From IMG/VR virus record IMGVR_UViG_3300029241_000103, positions 1 to 4,074 of that record: DNA of 4,074 nt, one strand, 5' to 3'. The translations under genes were made by a program, and so were the position numbers. Source of the DNA: a virus (taxonomy: Duplodnaviria > Heunggongvirae > Uroviricota > Caudoviricetes). Under the pieces are notes generated by a model. That model had not been told where the DNA came from and ran no database searches. It saw nothing but the letters and a program-made list of their open reading frames with translations. Below are positions 1-3,790 of the stretch, in pieces. Positions within the stretch are counted from its first letter, which is position 1. Every line of letters starts with the position of its first letter.

Positions 1-170
1 TGATGCCTGAAAAAACTGGTGTTTACTGGAATTCTCGGTTTAGCATTGCTCCTATGCTCGATAGGATGTACCGTTTTTGAAAAACAAGTAGTTATACACT
101 TTGTGGGAGCCTATTGGGAACCCGGTGTTTTCATTTCAAGGTGTAATCCATGCGGGGCATCAGAATGAGA

Positions 171-176
171 TATAAT
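171..176 (+). promoter_or_regulatory. Candidate sigma70 -10 hexamer (TATAAT) upstream of the 206..742 ORF
   Basis: Exact consensus TATAAT at 171-176, about 30 nt upstream of the ATG at 206. No good -35 is found at 16-18 bp spacing and there is no TG extension, so this is a -10 match only. Confidence 0.3.
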
Positions 177-205
177 GAGATTTTTAGTGTTCCGCTTGAG
201 AGTCT

Positions 206-742
206 ATGATGCTTACCCTAGACGAGATAGGTCAATCTGTACGTAACAATATCCAGTTGATTATTGATCATGTCGGCTTACCTCTTGCTGTTGGTCCGCT
301 CAGTGATGATGATTACAAGATTCTGTGTGGTGGCTATGGTGAGCTTGAATGGGACTATGCGTTAAGCACCTATGGCAACTCCAGAGAAAAGTATGAGTTC
401 TGCATAAAACTTGTTCAGCAAGGTCGGGTTCAGGGAATACCATCAGGAGCAGCAATTTGTGTTTATGGGGTTGAAGAAAACATCTTTCGTATCCATATGA
501 TCGAAAGGTTTTCTAGAGAAGATGAATCTCACCCATTGAAAGGGCGCATGGTTTTACTCACTCTTATGAGTGCTTTTATATTTTGTAAAGCTGTTGAATG
601 TAAAGTTGTCCACATTGTAGAGCCAGTACCAGAACTGGTGCAGTATTACGAGTCTTTTGGTTTCCGCATGGAACAGTGCGGTTATGTGATGTCTGCAGTC
701 ATTGATGAGCTGCAGGATATCTTTCTTAAATTTGCTCAGTAG
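206..742 (+). CDS. Hypothetical protein, 178 aa, with a GNAT-like C-terminal motif (possible divergent acyl/acetyltransferase fold)
   Basis: Uninterrupted ORF ending at TAG 740-742. A weak SD (GAGAG, 198-202) precedes tandem ATGs at 206 and 209; the spacing favours 209. The segment PELVQYYESFGF resembles GNAT motif B (A-x-x-x-Y-E-x-x-G-F), and the predicted strand/helix order fits a GNAT fold. The glycine-rich motif A (R/Q-x-x-G-x-G/A) is not clearly present (HPLKGRMVLL). Looks AT-richer than the phage genes by eye. Confidence 0.55.
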   Translation: MMLTLDEIGQSVRNNIQLIIDHVGLPLAVGPLSDDDYKILCGGYGELEWDYALSTYGNSREKYEFCIKLVQQGRVQGIPSGAAICVYGVEENIFRIHMIERFSREDESHPLKGRMVLLTLMSAFIFCKAVECKVVHIVEPVPELVQYYESFGFRMEQCGYVMSAVIDELQDIFLKFAQ

Positions 743-759
743 GTATAGACGAGAAGGGT

Positions 760-772
760 CTACAAATTGTAG
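760..772. promoter_or_regulatory. 13-bp palindrome CTACAAATTGTAG (6-bp arms, 1-nt centre), candidate protein-binding site
   Basis: Read directly: CTACAA (760-765), A, TTGTAG (767-772) is a perfect inverted repeat. It overlaps a 5-bp stem hairpin TAGAC-N7-GTCTA (746-762) just after the stop of the 206..742 ORF. Confidence 0.3.
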
Positions 773-847
773 GATACCCGTCCAGATTACCTTAAAGGTA
801 CATCTATGGCAGTCGTTTTGTGCTTAAACTACTAAGAAACGATGTCA

Positions 848-894
848 CCAATCGACATGATCGATTGGCATAAGTTAGCTAAACAAGCTAGCTT
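848..894 (+). promoter_or_regulatory. Candidate operator and promoter upstream of the small ORF
   Basis: Inverted repeat CCAATCGA-N5-TCGATTGG (848-868) overlaps a -35-like TTGGCA (865-870). After an 18-nt spacer comes a -10-like TAGCTT (889-894). The palindrome AGCTAGCT (886-893) lies in the spacer and -10 region. Confidence 0.3.
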
Positions 895-938
895 TAAAGA
901 GAGGGTTAGAGACGCCTTTACTGTCTCGGGAGTTTTCT

Positions 939-1112
939 ATGAAAGATCAAAAAGCAACCAAGCCACAGGTTAAGTTCGACACAATGAAAGCATTCGCAGG
1001 TATGGGTGCTGCTGTTGAAGTTCTGATGAAGGCTGCTCCTAATGCGTTCACTCACGCTACTGTCTCTGGTAAAGAGCAGCAGGGTAAGCTTCGTCGTCGC
1101 AAAGCAGCATGA
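939..1112 (+). CDS. Small hypothetical protein, 57 aa (MKDQKATKPQVKFDTMKAFAGMGAAVEVLMKAAPNAFTHATVSGKEQQGKLRRRKAA), basic C-terminal tail
   Basis: Not in the supplied ORF track (presumably below its length cutoff); translated by hand. ATG at 939 follows SD GGGAG (928-932) with a 6-nt spacer. Stop is TGA at 1110-1112. Codon choice is typical of well-expressed enterobacterial genes (GGT, GCT, CGT, GTT, CTG, AAA, GAA). An intrinsic terminator follows 23 nt downstream. Confidence 0.5.
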   Translation: MKDQKATKPQVKFDTMKAFAGMGAAVEVLMKAAPNAFTHATVSGKEQQGKLRRRKAA

Positions 1113-1131
1113 TCATAGCTGGTGCTTTTTG

Positions 1132-1160
1132 AAAACCCGCCTTTAGGCGGGTTTTTTCTT
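1132..1160. terminator. Rho-independent (intrinsic) terminator, probably bidirectional, between convergent genes
   Basis: Stem CCCGCC (1136-1141), loop TTTA, stem GGCGGG (1146-1151), then TTTTTT (1152-1157) on the plus strand. AAAA (1132-1135) precedes the stem, so the minus strand reads hairpin then TTTTC. The minus-strand gene's stop (TAA, 1160-1162) sits immediately upstream of the hairpin in that orientation. Confidence 0.8.
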
Positions 1161-1441
1161 TAGTGATGTTCTTTGCCCTTCTGTTTGCTTGTTCTGACCT
1201 GTTCCCACTCGATACGTCCTTCTTCTCGTCTTTTGTCTATGTATTCCGCAAGATCCTGAATATTGATGCAACGTTTTGCTTTTTGTGATGTGCCGATGCG
1301 ATATGTTGGAACGGGCAACTTACAAGCGTTTGCTTTTGCTTCTGCCGTGGCTGGACTCATGCCAAAGTACTTTTGGCTAACTGCTGAGAGTTCAATGTTA
1401 GGGGTATTGAATTCAGCCATCAGTAAAAACAAGGTGTTCAT
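1160..1441 (-). CDS. PrtN-family / excisionase-like small DNA-binding protein (about 93 aa)
   Basis: The N-terminus MNTLFLLMAEF... and the segment ...KLPVPTYRIGTSQKAKRCINIQDLAEYID match, from memory, the conserved pattern of PrtN (pyocin activator) / phage Xis-like proteins. Start chosen as ATG at 1441, preceded by GGAG with a 6-nt spacer. The longer GTG-initiated reading to 1468 was not used. Confidence 0.65.
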   Translation of the reverse strand: MNTLFLLMAEFNTPNIELSAVSQKYFGMSPATAEAKANACKLPVPTYRIGTSQKAKRCINIQDLAEYIDKRREEGRIEWEQVRTSKQKGKEHH

Positions 1442-1477: not shown

Positions 1478-2050
1478 TCATAATTCTGTGCTGGTGGCAG
1501 GAATTAATTTCTGCCAGATAGCGGAAACATATTTTGCCTGATGACGGGCATCGGCCAGGGCGTTGTGCCGTTCGCCATCGAAAGGCATGTCCATTTTGGG
1601 GTCGAATCCGATGGAACGCCCAAGCGTAACGATCGTGCGTACATCGTGGTCATTCCAGTATGCCCACGGGCAGATTTGTCCTGCTCGCTCATAAGCTCCA
1701 CGTAAAATTACGTTGTCGAAGGTGGCCCCGTTACCCCAGACTTTTAAATATTTCGTATTGGCTGCGTGCCGGTTAATGAAATGATTTAGTTCTGAGAGAG
1801 CATCGCTGATCGACAAAGTATCATCAATACAGATTGCAGCTCGTGCTTCAGGGCTTTGTTTCAACCACCACAGGATGGTATCGCCGTCAGGTGTAGCTCC
1901 TTGCCCCATAGCACTTTCCAGGCTAACAACTGTATAGAATTCTTGTCCGATGTCTCCGGTTTCTGGAGTGAAGAACACCGCGCCAATGGAAACGATCGGT
2001 GCATCCTTATTTTTCCCCATCGTCTCAAGGTCGATCATTAAGTTGTTCAT
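1478..2050 (-). CDS. DEDDh-type (DnaQ-like) 3'-5' exonuclease, phage-encoded, about 190 aa
   Basis: All three Exo motifs can be read: Exo I IDLETMG (D-x-E), Exo II WGNGATFDNVIL (FD), Exo III HNALADARH (H-x-x-x-x-D). Strong SD AGGAGGT lies 6 nt before the ATG at 2050. The ATG overlaps the upstream gene's TGA (minus strand reads TGATG). Confidence 0.85.
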   Translation of the reverse strand: MNNLMIDLETMGKNKDAPIVSIGAVFFTPETGDIGQEFYTVVSLESAMGQGATPDGDTILWWLKQSPEARAAICIDDTLSISDALSELNHFINRHAANTKYLKVWGNGATFDNVILRGAYERAGQICPWAYWNDHDVRTIVTLGRSIGFDPKMDMPFDGERHNALADARHQAKYVSAIWQKLIPATSTEL

Positions 2051-2826
2051 CACTTCACCTCCTGCGGCGGTTCCGGTAGCGGCATCCAGTGAGTTGCTTG
2101 CTCAATACCATTACCCGGCTTAATCGTTGCATCTCCGCGCCGAAAGGTGCTTCCGGTATAGCGTGCGGAGCATATTAGCGGTTCAACCAGAGAGCTATCG
2201 AAATTCACCGAAATAAGCACGTTCTGGCCCTTTTCAGGCATTCGCTCACTACAGCTTATCCAACCATCCGGAGTTACCGGAGAGTTGCCATTTACATCGA
2301 AGTTTGGCTCTGCGTCCTGAACCAGGAGGATGTAACCATTCTTGGCTGTATCAAGTTCTAACGCCTCGGTGACGGTGCCGAAATAGCGATTACCTAAATC
2401 AGCATCACAAGTGCTTACATCAATGGAAACTTCCATGCCTTCGATTAATTCTGGCAAGTTGTAAGTTTGGCTTACAGGTTGGCTACCCTGAAGCATGGCG
2501 GCACGGCAGGCGTTCCAGCCATCAGCATATGTTTCAGTTACACCGTCGAGATGGCAGGTAAGCAAATCCATTTCATCAAGCACTACCAGCGCTGGCGGCG
2601 CGGTGTAAAGCTGGTGCGTTCCATCAGGCAGCGAGTGACCTACATACTCACCGAACCCGTCAACACACATGCACCCATCCTCAATAATGCATGACGCCAC
2701 TGGCTCTGCTTCCAGCGATGCCAGTGCAATTTCATACGACCGGCGCTCAATATTGTCTCGAACGTCCAGGCTGCCTATGCGCTCTTTGATTTCTTTAATC
2801 AGTTCTTTGTCGGTGAAAGTTGTCAT
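2050..2826 (-). CDS. Phage protein with C-terminal DUF551 domain, 258 aa
   Basis: The C-terminal region WISCSERMPEKGQNVLIS...ATHWMPLPEPP matches the DUF551 hallmark (THWMPLPEPP) as I recall it from enterobacterial prophage proteins. ATG at 2826 with SD GAGGA about 7 nt upstream. The acidic, Cys-containing N-terminal 150 aa is unassigned. Confidence 0.75.
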   Translation of the reverse strand: MTTFTDKELIKEIKERIGSLDVRDNIERRSYEIALASLEAEPVASCIIEDGCMCVDGFGEYVGHSLPDGTHQLYTAPPALVVLDEMDLLTCHLDGVTETYADGWNACRAAMLQGSQPVSQTYNLPELIEGMEVSIDVSTCDADLGNRYFGTVTEALELDTAKNGYILLVQDAEPNFDVNGNSPVTPDGWISCSERMPEKGQNVLISVNFDSSLVEPLICSARYTGSTFRRGDATIKPGNGIEQATHWMPLPEPPQEVK

Positions 2827-2829
2827 GTG

Positions 2830-3117
2830 TTAGTCCTCATCCACTTCAACGTCATCTTTCAGCGTGATGCCGTGCCAATCATCAGCCCAACTGGTTAGCC
2901 CTGGCGCATCAATGCTAGGCATATAGACGCTTGCAGTGTGGTAGCCCTTATCGTTATCAATGCTGGCAACGTGCTCGCCGTTGTATGCGCTCAGCGTGTC
3001 CAGGACGCTATAAAACTTTCCTCCGGCTGCCCTGAAATCCTTTACAGCCTTCACAAGGCGATTCCACGCTTTTTCCTGTTCTGGCGTCAGGTCGATTAAT
3101 TCCTGCAAAGTTGCCAT
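2830..3117 (-). CDS. Hypothetical phage protein, 95 aa, strongly acidic C-terminus (…LKDDVEVDED)
   Basis: Start at ATG 3117, preceded by SD AAGGAGAG. It sits 1 nt after the TGA of the upstream gene (minus strand reads TGATATG). The longer track ORF (to 3279) would overlap the Ead/Ea22-like CDS in another frame and was rejected. Confidence 0.7.
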   Translation of the reverse strand: MATLQELIDLTPEQEKAWNRLVKAVKDFRAAGGKFYSVLDTLSAYNGEHVASIDNDKGYHTASVYMPSIDAPGLTSWADDWHGITLKDDVEVDED

Positions 3118-3118
3118 A

Positions 3119-3790
3119 TCACTCTCCTTTGATGCGAATGCCAGCGGCGCGCTCGGCTTCACTTTGTTCCCAAAACCACTTGTGAAGCGCCATAAGCTTT
3201 TCGTCAATCGGTGCATATTTGCGATTAAAGTAGGCCTGAGCATCTTTCTCAGATTCGTCCGGTAATTCGCCAGGGCCAAACAGTGTGTTATAAATCCATG
3301 CCAGTCCGCTTTTAGCGTCGCCAGTTGCCTGCCATTCGATAATGGCAGCCTGCATGACCAGAATGTTTTTCCCGATTAATAGGTCCAGTTCTTTGTACCG
3401 GTTGCGGATGTATGCATTCTCGCTTTGTAATTTTGCGTTGCGCTTCTCTGCGGCTTCCAGCTTGGCTTCTGCATCTTTGGCTCGCATCTGCCAGTTGATA
3501 GCGATGTCGATAACGCTGTTAGCACAACTGGACTCGTTCTCTTCGGCAGCTTTAGCTTCAGAAAGCTCATCAAGCAATCCAAGAACAACAGTTGGCGTGG
3601 CGAGCGTGATAAAACGCATATTGCTCATATGCTCTTCATCGCTAACATCATCGCCAGCCTCGACCGCTGCCATGTGCTGAACATAGCCGCTATCACAGGT
3701 ATTCCAGATTGCCCCTGCCTCGTGACCCCATTCACCATGTAGTGCTTTTTCTGCCGCCTCACGCAGTGCCTGGTAATTAATTTCGCTCAC
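3119..3790 (-). CDS. Ead/Ea22-like family phage protein, 223 aa, with central coiled-coil-like region
   Basis: The N-terminus MSEINYQALREAAEKALHGEW... resembles Ead/Ea22-like proteins of lambdoid prophages (from memory). The central segment EAKAAEE...AKDAEAKLEAAEKRNAKLQSENAYIRNRYKEL looks coiled-coil. Start is GTG at 3790, with a near-perfect SD AAGGAGG 6 nt upstream. GTG overlaps the upstream stop (GTGA). Confidence 0.7.
   Translation of the reverse strand: MSEINYQALREAAEKALHGEWGHEAGAIWNTCDSGYVQHMAAVEAGDDVSDEEHMSNMRFITLATPTVVLGLLDELSEAKAAEENESSCANSVIDIAINWQMRAKDAEAKLEAAEKRNAKLQSENAYIRNRYKELDLLIGKNILVMQAAIIEWQATGDAKSGLAWIYNTLFGPGELPDESEKDAQAYFNRKYAPIDEKLMALHKWFWEQSEAERAAGIRIKGE

What the first reader, a model, noticed from the sequence alone, without database searches (positions are those of the whole stretch)
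1160..1441. Excisionase/PrtN-like gene is followed by the cassette rather than an integrase
In lambda-like layouts the leftward operon ends in xis then int. Here the Xis/PrtN-like gene is the last minus-strand gene, and the next 1.1 kb is the convergent cassette. Either the integrase lies beyond the window start with the cassette inserted between xis and int, or this protein acts as a transcriptional activator (PrtN-type) rather than an excisionase.
Basis: inference. Interest (0 to 1): 0.35.

Follow-up and report, generated by a model that had tools for sequence, protein, structure and literature searches.

The report
Excision factor of a dusA-integrating phage
This small gene encodes the already described RdfN-type excision helper of a lambda-like E. 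coli phage that integrates into the host dusA gene. Its integrase lies just past the left edge of the window, on the other side of the phage attachment site, so the layout is normal for this phage group.

Summary
Window 1160-1441 (-) is a real 93-aa gene (Pfam PF11112 PrtN, 3e-23; PHROG 'excisionase', 1e-39). It is the last gene of the leftward operon and faces a convergent two-gene cassette.

The window is about 98% identical to phage mEp460, where a tyrosine integrase starts 131 bp left of window position 1. The crossover core is ATGCTCGA at 54-61, with a surrogate dusA 5' end on its left and integrase arm-type repeats at 103-123. An attP/attB/attL/attR comparison shows integration into codons 33-35 of dusA.

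In E. coli lysogens this gene sits at attL and the integrase about 47 kb away at attR. In the cassette-free Yersinia phage YeP3 the order is exonuclease, this gene, attP, integrase.

The protein is 61% identical to a close relative of Vibrio RdfN. RdfN is the PF11112 factor shown experimentally (Rivard 2021) to drive excision by dusA-specific integrases. Farrugia (2015) already listed mEp460 among phages carrying such an integrase.

The cassette is a mobile moron (a GNAT-fold protein plus a 57-aa protein) in a cargo slot between attP and rdfN. The finding is known biology and of low interest.

The parts
1..53 (+). Core-proximal part of the attP P arm. It encodes the 3' part of a phage-borne surrogate 5' end of dusA. 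The frame runs from position 3 (MPEKTGVYWNSRFSIAPMLD...) and in the excised phage form stops at 78-80. The rest of the P arm, with three arm-type repeats, and the integrase gene lie left of the window.
   Evidence: There are 0 mismatches to the phage side of EH41 attR and to SKA5 attP, and 3 to mEp460 attP, but 11 mismatches to host attB and attL.
54..61 (.). attP crossover core (overlap region) ATGCTCGA. This is the only stretch shared by attP, attB, attL and attR, and it corresponds to codons 33-35 (Met-Leu-Asp) of E. coli dusA.
   Evidence: Four-way alignment of mEp460 attP, K-12 attB, and EH41 attL and attR. Position confirmed.
62..131 (.). attP P' arm, with two direct arm-type repeats GTGGGAGCC / TTGGGAACC at 103-123. 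Homology with phages that carry other cargo ends at 122-131, which marks the functional right edge of attP.
   Evidence: There are 0 mismatches to the phage side of EH41 attL. The repeat family is shared with three copies in the mEp460 P arm about 199 bp away. YeP3 has the same architecture with a different motif, GGGGTGCT.
132..205 (+). Upstream region of the cassette, with TATAAT at 171-176 inside a 10-bp-spaced direct repeat AATGAGAT (164-171 and 174-181). This is a possible cassette promoter. No terminator-like site separates it from the dusA 5' fragment upstream.
   Evidence: Sequence, repeats, promoter and terminator scan (it called no consensus promoter here). The promoter role is inferred.
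206..742 (+). Cassette gene 1: a 178-aa GNAT-fold protein of unknown substrate (PHROG 4350).
   Evidence: No Pfam, NCBIfam or PADLOC hit. The AlphaFold model has pLDDT 91. Foldseek against the PDB gave 314 hits at E<=1e-3, all GNAT acetyltransferases: GCN5, AtaT/TacT/KacT, SpeG.
939..1112 (+). Cassette gene 2: a 57-aa protein (PHROG 2741) that accompanies gene 1 in all three cassette contexts examined.
   Evidence: PHROG hit at 8e-36. A 57/58-aa gene follows the GNAT-like gene in Atlantibacter and Photorhabdus prophages.
1131..1156 (+). Intrinsic terminator of the cassette: an 11-bp stem followed by UUUUUUCUUU. On the minus-strand transcript the same hairpin forms, but only a short U run follows it, so it is a weaker stop for the rdfN transcript.
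   Evidence: Scan. Folds (z = -3.5; z = -4.8). The terminator belongs to the mobile unit: window 209-1157 aligns at 69% to the Atlantibacter copy.
1160..1441 (-). rdfN homologue: a 93-aa PF11112 (PrtN-family) winged-helix protein. It is the predicted recombination directionality factor (excisionase) for the dusA-specific integrase and the last gene of the early-left operon.
   Evidence: family hits; 61% identity to V. cholerae 76-aa P0027; P0027 locus matched to published rdfN primers; model pLDDT 88.9, top fold hit P2 Cox 4LHF but E=0.13; experimental RdfN.
1478..2053 (-). Upstream gene of the same operon: a 3'-5' exonuclease (Rv2179c-like, DEDDh). It is conserved immediately upstream of rdfN in mEp460, SKA5, PhiR55_1 and YeP3.
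   Evidence: Pfam PF16473 at 3.7e-75. Synteny.

Best explanation
The gene at 1160-1441 (-) encodes the RdfN-type recombination directionality factor of a lambdoid E. coli phage (mEp460 group). The phage's tyrosine integrase belongs to the dusA-associated integrase family.

The window is the excised (phage-form) junction. Its order is int (131 bp off the left edge in the nearest relatives), attP P arm, core ATGCTCGA at 54-61, P' arm, cargo cassette, then rdfN.

Integration: Int alone recombines the attP core with codons 33-35 of host dusA. The P arm supplies a substitute promoter and 5' end for dusA.

Prophage state: rdfN and the cassette end up at attL, and int ends up at attR about 47 kb away. 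The two genes cannot be co-transcribed as in lambda.

Excision (inferred): when the CI-like repressor is lost, the leftward early operon is transcribed and ends in the exonuclease gene and rdfN. RdfN is a small winged-helix DNA binder that binds the att arms. It switches the separately expressed integrase, which is probably autoregulated, from integration to attL x attR excision.

The cassette (a GNAT-fold protein plus a 57-aa protein and its own terminator) is an independent mobile moron. It sits in a cargo slot between the P' arm and the 3' end of rdfN.

What is shown here: gene identity at the family level, the att quartet and core, gene order in the phage and prophage forms, and the cassette being an insertion. 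What was shown elsewhere for a homologue: RDF activity. What is inferred: RDF activity of this particular protein, its binding sites, and the regulation of both genes.
For: (1) Family: PF11112 at 3e-23 and PHROG 1300 'excisionase' at 1e-39.

(2) Experimental precedent: Rivard et al. 2021 (PMC8409611). Deleting rdfN (a 76-aa PF11112 protein) abolished excision of the dusA-specific element IMEVchUSA3. A mini-element carrying only int excised only when rdfN was supplied. The authors state that int and rdfN lie across attP.

(3) The window protein is 61% identical (46/76, E=3e-33) to the V. cholerae 76-aa protein P0027. The P0027 gene matches the published rdfN forward cloning primer exactly. It has the same first 7 and last 3 residues, and it sits in an island next to a Fur-family gene.

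(4) Att quartet: window 1-53 has 0 mismatches to the phage side of EH41 attR, and 62-131 has 0 mismatches to the phage side of EH41 attL. Host attB differs at 11 of 53 positions on the left and is unrelated on the right. The shared core is ATGCTCGA.

(5) Gene order: in mEp460 and SKA5 it is int, attP, cargo, rdfN. In the EH41 lysogen the dusA' fragment, cargo and rdfN lie at 349-350 kb, while int and the restored dusA lie at 397-399 kb.

(6) The cassette-free relative YeP3 has exonuclease, rdfN (PF11112, 55% identical), a 279-bp gap holding attP with a surrogate dusA 5' end, and then int (67% identical).

(7) Farrugia et al. 2015 (PMC4482086) name mEp460 as carrying a dusA-associated integrase. 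They found a prtN homologue in 60 of 94 dusA islands.

(8) The P2-like phage ACA1 also integrates in dusA and carries a PF11112 gene.

(9) The model is a confident winged helix plus a long C-terminal helix. The nearest PDB fold is the excisionase/regulator P2 Cox, and another hit is a putative Klebsiella excisionase.
Against: No experiment exists for this protein or for any E. coli lambdoid homologue. The integrase itself is outside the window and is known only from close relatives, at 97-99% nucleotide identity over the shared parts.

P0027 is a close relative of the tested RdfN but not proven identical to it, because the published reverse primer does not match its locus.

The fold match to Cox and other excisionases is not statistically significant (best E=0.13). 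Sequence searches of the PDB found nothing.

The family's founding member, PrtN, is a transcriptional activator, so DNA binding for regulation cannot be excluded. RdfN binding sites in attL and attR were not identified.
Confidence: 0.85

Rival explanations
1. Dual-function protein. Besides directing excision, it acts as a transcriptional regulator, as P2 Cox, 186 Apl, P4 Vis and KplE1 TorI do. It might, for example, repress the integrase promoter or the surrogate dusA promoter, which overlap the P-arm arm-type sites. It might also modulate the cassette promoter. This reading extends the best explanation and is compatible with it.
For: PF11112 is named after a transcriptional activator. The top structural neighbour is the multifunctional P2 Cox. 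In the dusA-integrating P2-like phage ACA1, a PF11112 gene occupies the Cox position beside the immunity repressor. In mEp460 the arm-type repeats lie 19-55 bp upstream of the int start codon, so att-bound proteins would overlap Pint. In KplE1, IntS and the RDF TorI both repress intS, whose promoter overlaps attL (PMC2951348).
Against: There is no direct evidence. No RdfN binding site has been defined. Rivard et al. did not report RdfN acting on Pint: Pint was tested only for AcaCD dependence and was active without it. The Cox fold match is weak (E=0.13).
Confidence: 0.3
2. A pure PrtN-type transcriptional activator with no role in recombination. It would switch on some phage or cargo promoter after induction.
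For: Family name and Pfam match. RefSeq/PGAP labels the E. coli orthologues 'pyocin activator PrtN family protein'.
Against: It is 61% identical to a close relative of an experimentally proven RDF. It is linked to dusA-type integrases and dusA attP sites in lambdoid (mEp460, SKA5, YeP3) and P2-like (ACA1) phages, and a PF11112 gene was reported in the SGI1-like dusA islands and in 60 of 94 dusA islands overall. In cassette-free YeP3 it sits directly against attP. No other excisionase candidate is annotated in these recombination modules.
Confidence: 0.05
3. A lambda-type xis-int operon that was only recently split by the cassette. On this view int expression still depends on leftward read-through from the early promoter across the cassette (a strict reading of the reader's first alternative).
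For: int and the PrtN-like gene are on the same strand with int downstream. On the minus-strand transcript the hairpin at 1131-1156 lacks a proper U-tract, so some read-through is possible in the excised circular form.
Against: attP lies between the two genes even without any cassette (YeP3). In the prophage, where excision must start, int is therefore about 47 kb away at the other end and cannot be reached from this operon. The published description of dusA elements says the same. Read-through would also have to run about 1 kb antisense to the cassette.
Confidence: 0.07

Closest known systems
RdfN of the dusA-specific element IMEVchUSA3 of Vibrio cholerae (Rivard et al. 2021, PLoS Genet, PMC8409611)
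   Same: Both have a PF11112 domain. A close V. cholerae relative of RdfN is 61% identical over 76 residues. Both are partnered with a dusA-specific tyrosine integrase, lie across attP from int, and belong to elements that restore the dusA 5' end.
   Different: The window protein is 93 aa, not 76, with a 17-residue basic C-terminal tail that is variable and modelled with low confidence. It lies at the end of a lambdoid early-left operon, presumably under CI control, instead of behind an AcaCD-responsive promoter. It has not been tested experimentally.
dusA-associated integrase (DAI) elements (Farrugia et al. 2015, NAR, PMC4482086)
   Same: Integration is in the 5' end of dusA, with imperfect direct repeats around a short conserved core and a prtN homologue on board. 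Phage mEp460, the nearest relative of the window, is named in that paper as a DAI carrier.
   Different: Nothing essential differs. That paper left the role of the prtN homologue open.
KplE1 / HK620 / Sf6 recombination module (IntS + TorI; Panis et al. 2010, PMC2951348)
   Same: The integrase promoter overlaps the att region. int and the RDF gene are transcriptionally uncoupled. Control of excision rests on RDF expression.
   Different: The proteins are unrelated (TorI is not PF11112). The target there is the argW tRNA gene, not dusA. Autoregulation of int is only inferred here.
Lambda Xis-Int
   Same: Both are small basic DNA-binding proteins expressed from the leftward early operon that direct a tyrosine integrase towards excision.
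   Different: There is no sequence match to lambda-type Xis families. In lambda, attP lies downstream of int, so xis and int stay adjacent in the prophage and are co-transcribed from pL. Here attP lies between them.
P2 Cox (PDB 4LHF)
   Same: It is the best structural neighbour of the model (a winged helix), and it is an excisionase that is also a regulator.
   Different: The match is weak (E=0.13, TM 0.43-0.49, 18% identity). There is no sequence homology and the partner integrase is different.
PrtN, pyocin gene activator of Pseudomonas aeruginosa
   Same: Same Pfam family (PF11112).
   Different: PrtN activates pyocin promoters and has no partner integrase or att site. The window protein sits in a recombination module.

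Membership tests
RdfN-type recombination directionality factors (PF11112) of dusA-specific integrases | PF11112 (PyocinActivator/PrtN) domain in a small protein of about 75-100 aa | tested here: met
   E=3e-23, 82 bits against a 24.2-bit cutoff, covering profile positions 1-73 of 74. The protein is 93 aa.
RdfN-type recombination directionality factors (PF11112) of dusA-specific integrases | Sequence similarity to the experimentally characterised RdfN | tested here: met
   It is 61% identical (46/76) to V. cholerae P0027. The P0027 gene matches the published rdfN forward primer exactly and nearly matches the promoter primer, but not the reverse primer. P0027 is therefore a close relative of the tested protein, not proven identical.
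RdfN-type recombination directionality factors (PF11112) of dusA-specific integrases | Encoded by an element that integrates in the 5' end of dusA through a DAI-type tyrosine integrase | tested here: met
   The attP core and both proximal arms lie in window 1-131. The att quartet was reconstructed. The integrase (PF00589) lies next to attP in mEp460 and SKA5 and next to restored dusA in EH41. mEp460 is listed as a DAI phage. The integrase itself is outside the window.
RdfN-type recombination directionality factors (PF11112) of dusA-specific integrases | Located across attP from int, so at the opposite prophage end | tested here: met
   This matches the statement in PMC8409611.
RdfN-type recombination directionality factors (PF11112) of dusA-specific integrases | Required for integrase-mediated excision (RDF activity) | not testable with these tools
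   This needs deletion and complementation with attB/attP detection.
Lambda-type / HTH_17 excisionases | Sequence match to Xis/excisionase Pfam families | tested here: not met
   Only PF11112 was reported at E<=0.1. No PDB sequence match was found.
Lambda-type / HTH_17 excisionases | Winged-helix fold resembling solved excisionases | tested here: inconclusive
   The model (pLDDT 88.9) is a winged helix. The best hits are P2 Cox 4LHF (E=0.13, probability 0.87) and the putative excisionase 2KVV (E=0.85). No hit reached E<=0.001.
Lambda-type / HTH_17 excisionases | xis adjacent to and co-transcribed with int, with attP outside the pair | tested here: not met
   attP lies between the two genes.
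PrtN pyocin activators | PF11112 domain | tested here: met
PrtN pyocin activators | Activates pyocin or late promoters through P-box sites, under PrtR control | not tested
   There are no pyocin genes in the window or in related phages. P-box motifs were not searched. Promoter activation needs an experiment.
KplE1/HK620-type recombination modules | Integrase promoter overlaps the att arm, and int is uncoupled from the RDF gene | tested here: inconclusive
   The layout fits: arm-type repeats lie 19-55 bp upstream of the int start in mEp460, and the two genes are separated by attP. The promoter itself and autoregulation were not shown. There is no sequence relation to TorI.

The most novel reading that the evidence does not exclude
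The stretch between the attP P' arm and the 3' end of rdfN is a dedicated cargo slot. Any gene placed there sits directly downstream of the host dusA promoter in the lysogen, and downstream of the phage's surrogate dusA promoter in the excised form, with no intervening terminator. Different phages fill the slot with different toxin-antitoxin-like or defence-like modules. Here it holds an uncharacterised GNAT-fold protein plus a 57-aa partner. In SKA5 it holds a Panacea-domain pair, and in PhiR55_1 a YafO module. RdfN may in addition regulate Pint, the surrogate dusA promoter or the cargo promoters, as Cox and TorI do in their systems. If so, the GNAT + 57-aa pair would be a new phage-borne toxin-antitoxin or defence module expressed by promoter capture at attL.
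Probability: 0.25. Interest if true: 0.4.

Novelty: already known. Interest (0 to 1): 0.15.

Why it matters
It matters mostly for correct annotation. 'Pyocin activator PrtN family protein' in E. coli lambdoid prophages at dusA should be read as the excisionase (RdfN). The integrase should be sought at the other prophage end, next to the restored dusA.

The result also gives an inferred answer to a question left open by Rivard et al. 2021, namely what drives rdfN expression in prophage-type dusA elements. Here rdfN is the terminal gene of the repressor-controlled early-left operon.

dusA is a known insertion site of Shiga-toxin phages (a Stx2a prophage in PMC12029490), and the Stx2k phage phiSTEC1575 carries a 97%-identical copy of this gene. 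The module is therefore relevant to Stx prophage stability. None of this is conceptually new.

Tried and rejected
- Sequence searches of the PDB with the protein and with its family profile found nothing useful.
- NCBIfam and PADLOC gave no meaningful hit for the PrtN-like protein or the cassette proteins.
- Foldseek with the RdfN model gave only non-significant winged-helix matches (best E=0.13). I treat the fold evidence as consistent but inconclusive.
- The published reverse cloning primer for rdfN does not match the P0027 locus. I therefore claim only that P0027 is a close relative of the tested RdfN, not the same protein.
- I checked whether the PF11112-int gap of Pseudomonas phage D14H holds a dusA-type core. 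It does not, so I did not use that phage as evidence.
- In BcepIL02 the tblastn match overlaps the 3' end of the annotated integrase on the opposite strand. I could not interpret this and did not use it.
- The consensus promoter scan found no sigma-70 site for the cassette or in the P' arm, so the promoter statements are inference.
- Rfam gave no hit in the window.
- I rejected the idea that the window comes from an integrated prophage. Its left 53 bases match the phage P arm, not host dusA.

Full report
**Observation**

The window is an early-left region of a lambdoid enterobacterial phage. The ORF at 1160-1441 (-) is 93 aa. It has an ATG preceded by GGAG, while the upstream GTG at 1468 has no ribosome-binding site. 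It matches Pfam PF11112 (PrtN) at 3e-23 and PHROG 1300 'excisionase' at 1e-39. It follows the 3'-5' exonuclease gene (1478-2053, PF16473) by 36 nt and is the last credible minus-strand gene.

Facing it is a plus-strand unit with two genes, 206-742 (178 aa) and 939-1112 (57 aa). The unit ends in a strong terminator at 1131-1156, 4 nt from the stop codon of the PrtN-like gene. The described observation is correct.

**Where the integrase is**

The window is 97.6% identical to phage mEp460 over 78% of its length. It is up to 98.7% identical to prophages in many E. coli chromosomes.

In mEp460 the order is DinI(-), tyrosine integrase gp22(-), a 340-bp gap, gp23(+), gp24(+), gp25 'excisionase' with a pfam11112 note (-), then exonuclease(-). 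Window position 1 lies 131 bp beyond the integrase start codon. Phage SKA5 has the same arrangement, with an annotated 'tRNA-dihydrouridine' mini-ORF in the gap.

**The attachment site is inside the window**

In E. coli EH41 the left prophage end reads zur, DUF2713 gene, a truncated dusA 5' fragment, the two cassette genes, then the PrtN-family gene, at 349-350 kb. The right end, at 397-399 kb, reads DinI, integrase, then a full-length dusA and pspG. Uninterrupted K-12 has zur-yjbL-yjbM-dusA-pspG.

I aligned mEp460 attP, K-12 attB, and EH41 attL and attR. The only segment common to all four is ATGCTCGA, which is window 54-61 and codons 33-35 of dusA.

- Window 1-53 has 0 mismatches to the phage side of attR and 11 mismatches to the host.
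- Window 62-131 has 0 mismatches to the phage side of attL.

The window therefore carries an intact attP and comes from the excised or virion form. The left arm encodes a surrogate DusA N-terminus...MPEKTGVYWNSRFSIAPMLD. After integration this is fused in frame to the host gene. In the phage form it runs into a stop at 78-80.

Arm-type repeats (GGGAACC-like) occur twice at window 103-123 and three times in the mEp460 P arm, 19-55 bp upstream of the int start.

**A cassette-free relative**

Yersinia phage YeP3 has exonuclease, a PF11112 gene (55% identical), a 279-bp gap, then an integrase (67% identical to that of mEp460), all on one strand.

The gap contains a surrogate dusA 5' end (...RFSVAPMLD) and the same core. 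It has the same 3+2 arrangement of arm repeats about 198 bp apart, but with a different motif, GGGGTGCT.

The ancestral module is therefore rdfN-attP-int. attP separates the two genes whether or not a cassette is present.

**What the protein does**

Farrugia et al. 2015 defined the dusA-associated integrases. They named mEp460 as a carrier and found a prtN homologue of unknown role in 60 of 94 dusA islands.

Rivard et al. 2021 then examined the 76-aa PF11112 protein RdfN of IMEVchUSA3.

- Deleting rdfN abolished excision and mobilisation of the element.
- Expression of rdfN in trans restored excision.
- A mini-element carrying only int excised only when rdfN was supplied.
- They note that int and rdfN lie across attP.

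The window protein is 61% identical (46/76, E=3e-33) to V. cholerae P0027, which is also 76 aa. The P0027 gene matches the published rdfN forward primer exactly and shares the terminal residues R-E-L. The reverse primer differs, so P0027 is a close relative and not necessarily the tested protein.

The AlphaFold model (pLDDT 88.9) is a winged helix followed by a long helix. Its nearest PDB neighbours are P2 Cox (4LHF) and a putative excisionase (2KVV), but neither match is significant.

The P2-like phage ACA1 integrates in dusA and has a PF11112 gene at the Cox position.

**Mechanism (inferred)**

In the lysogen, rdfN sits at attL as the terminal gene of the leftward early operon. In mEp460, operator-like TTGCG...GCAA repeats occur both between the cI-like and cro-like genes and just left of the cI-like gene. 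This fits a repressor-controlled leftward promoter.

The integrase, at attR, must have its own promoter inside the P arm. That promoter probably overlaps the arm-type sites, as in the KplE1/HK620 paradigm, where int is autoregulated and excision is controlled through the RDF.

Induction would thus deliver RdfN, which redirects Int to attL x attR recombination.

**The cassette**

Homology with SKA5 ends at window 122 and resumes at 926. Homology with PhiR55_1 ends at 131 and resumes at 1189. The slot between the P' arm and the 3' end of rdfN holds different cargo in each phage:

- here, a GNAT-fold protein plus a 57-aa protein;
- in SKA5, a Panacea-domain protein, a 139-aa ORF and the same 57-aa gene;
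- in PhiR55_1, genes annotated YafO and YafM.

The 178-aa protein has no family hit. Its model (pLDDT 91) is clearly a GNAT fold.

The pair, with its terminator, is a mobile unit. Window 209-1157 is 69% identical to a copy between the Q antiterminator and the holin genes of an Atlantibacter prophage. The pair also sits inside a tail module in Photorhabdus.

In all three cargo-bearing phages the cargo points the same way as dusA. No terminator-like site separates it from the dusA fragment. Transcription from the dusA promoter across attL is therefore conceivable, but it has not been shown.

**Verdict**

The finding is real and is explained by published work. The gene is the RdfN-type excisionase of a dusA-integrating lambdoid phage, and its separation from int is the norm for this module because attP lies between them.

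The lambda premise is wrong, and the attP in the window was missed. The 'activator instead of excisionase' option is not supported, although an additional regulatory role remains open.

Novelty: already known. Interest: low.

Noticed in passing
window 206-1157: The convergent cassette is a mobile two-gene unit with its own terminator: a 178-aa protein with a confident GNAT fold and no sequence-family hit, followed by a 57-aa protein. A copy 69% identical in DNA sits between Q and holin in Atlantibacter prophages (L012/L013). The protein pair also lies inside a myovirus tail module in Photorhabdus (L010/L011). GNAT toxins (AtaT, TacT, KacT) are among the top fold hits, but generic acetyltransferases score equally well.
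   Followed up: partly
L007 3816-4804 (SKA5); L008 4300-5290 (PhiR55_1); window 132-1157: The slot between the attP P' arm and rdfN is a cargo hot spot. SKA5 carries a SocA/Panacea-domain protein plus a 139-aa ORF there. PhiR55_1 carries genes annotated YafO toxin and YafM. All cargo is oriented like dusA, and left breakpoints cluster at window 122-131.
   Followed up: partly
window 103-123; L001 7888-7924; L009 4280-4301 and 4477-4517: The arm-type repeat architecture (three copies in the P arm, two in the P' arm, about 198-199 bp apart) is conserved between mEp460 and YeP3. The repeat motif differs (GGGAACC versus GGGGTGCT), tracking the 67%-identical integrases.
   Followed up: partly
L003 about 6900-7060 (E. 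coli VTB97074v attL): In this strain the host side of attL is a different dusA-like 5' end (MPAESHTVYPAYRFSIAPMLD), and yjbL/yjbM are absent. This may be a scar left by another dusA-targeting element.
   Followed up: no
window 164-181: A direct repeat AATGAGAT occurs twice with 10-bp spacing, overlapping a perfect TATAAT (171-176) upstream of the GNAT-like gene. It may be a promoter or operator of the cassette. The consensus promoter scan did not call it.
   Followed up: no
window 2507-3143 and 3463-3724: There is mosaicism in the ea-type genes. These stretches, which include much of the DUF551 gene (2050-2826) and part of the Ead/Ea22-like gene, have essentially no match in mEp460 or EH41. 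In EH41 and other RefSeq E. coli genomes the DUF551 gene is annotated as two pseudogene fragments.
   Followed up: no
L015 3001-3255 (Pseudoalteromonas phage ACA1): A P2-like phage that integrates in dusA carries a PF11112 protein annotated 'cox-like' next to the immunity repressor. This suggests PF11112 proteins can occupy the Cox (excisionase plus switch regulator) niche.
   Followed up: no
L001 14872-14920 and 15685-15740 (mEp460): Operator-like imperfect palindromes (TTGCGnnnTATGCAA type) occur both between the cI-like and cro-like genes and just left of the cI-like gene. This fits OR/OL-type control of the leftward operon that ends in rdfN.
   Followed up: partly
L006 11266-14827: The V. 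cholerae island that carries the RdfN relative P0027 also encodes an OLD-family ATPase/TOPRIM protein followed by a UvrD-like helicase (a Gabija-like pair), and an Integrase_1 (PF12835) protein.
   Followed up: no
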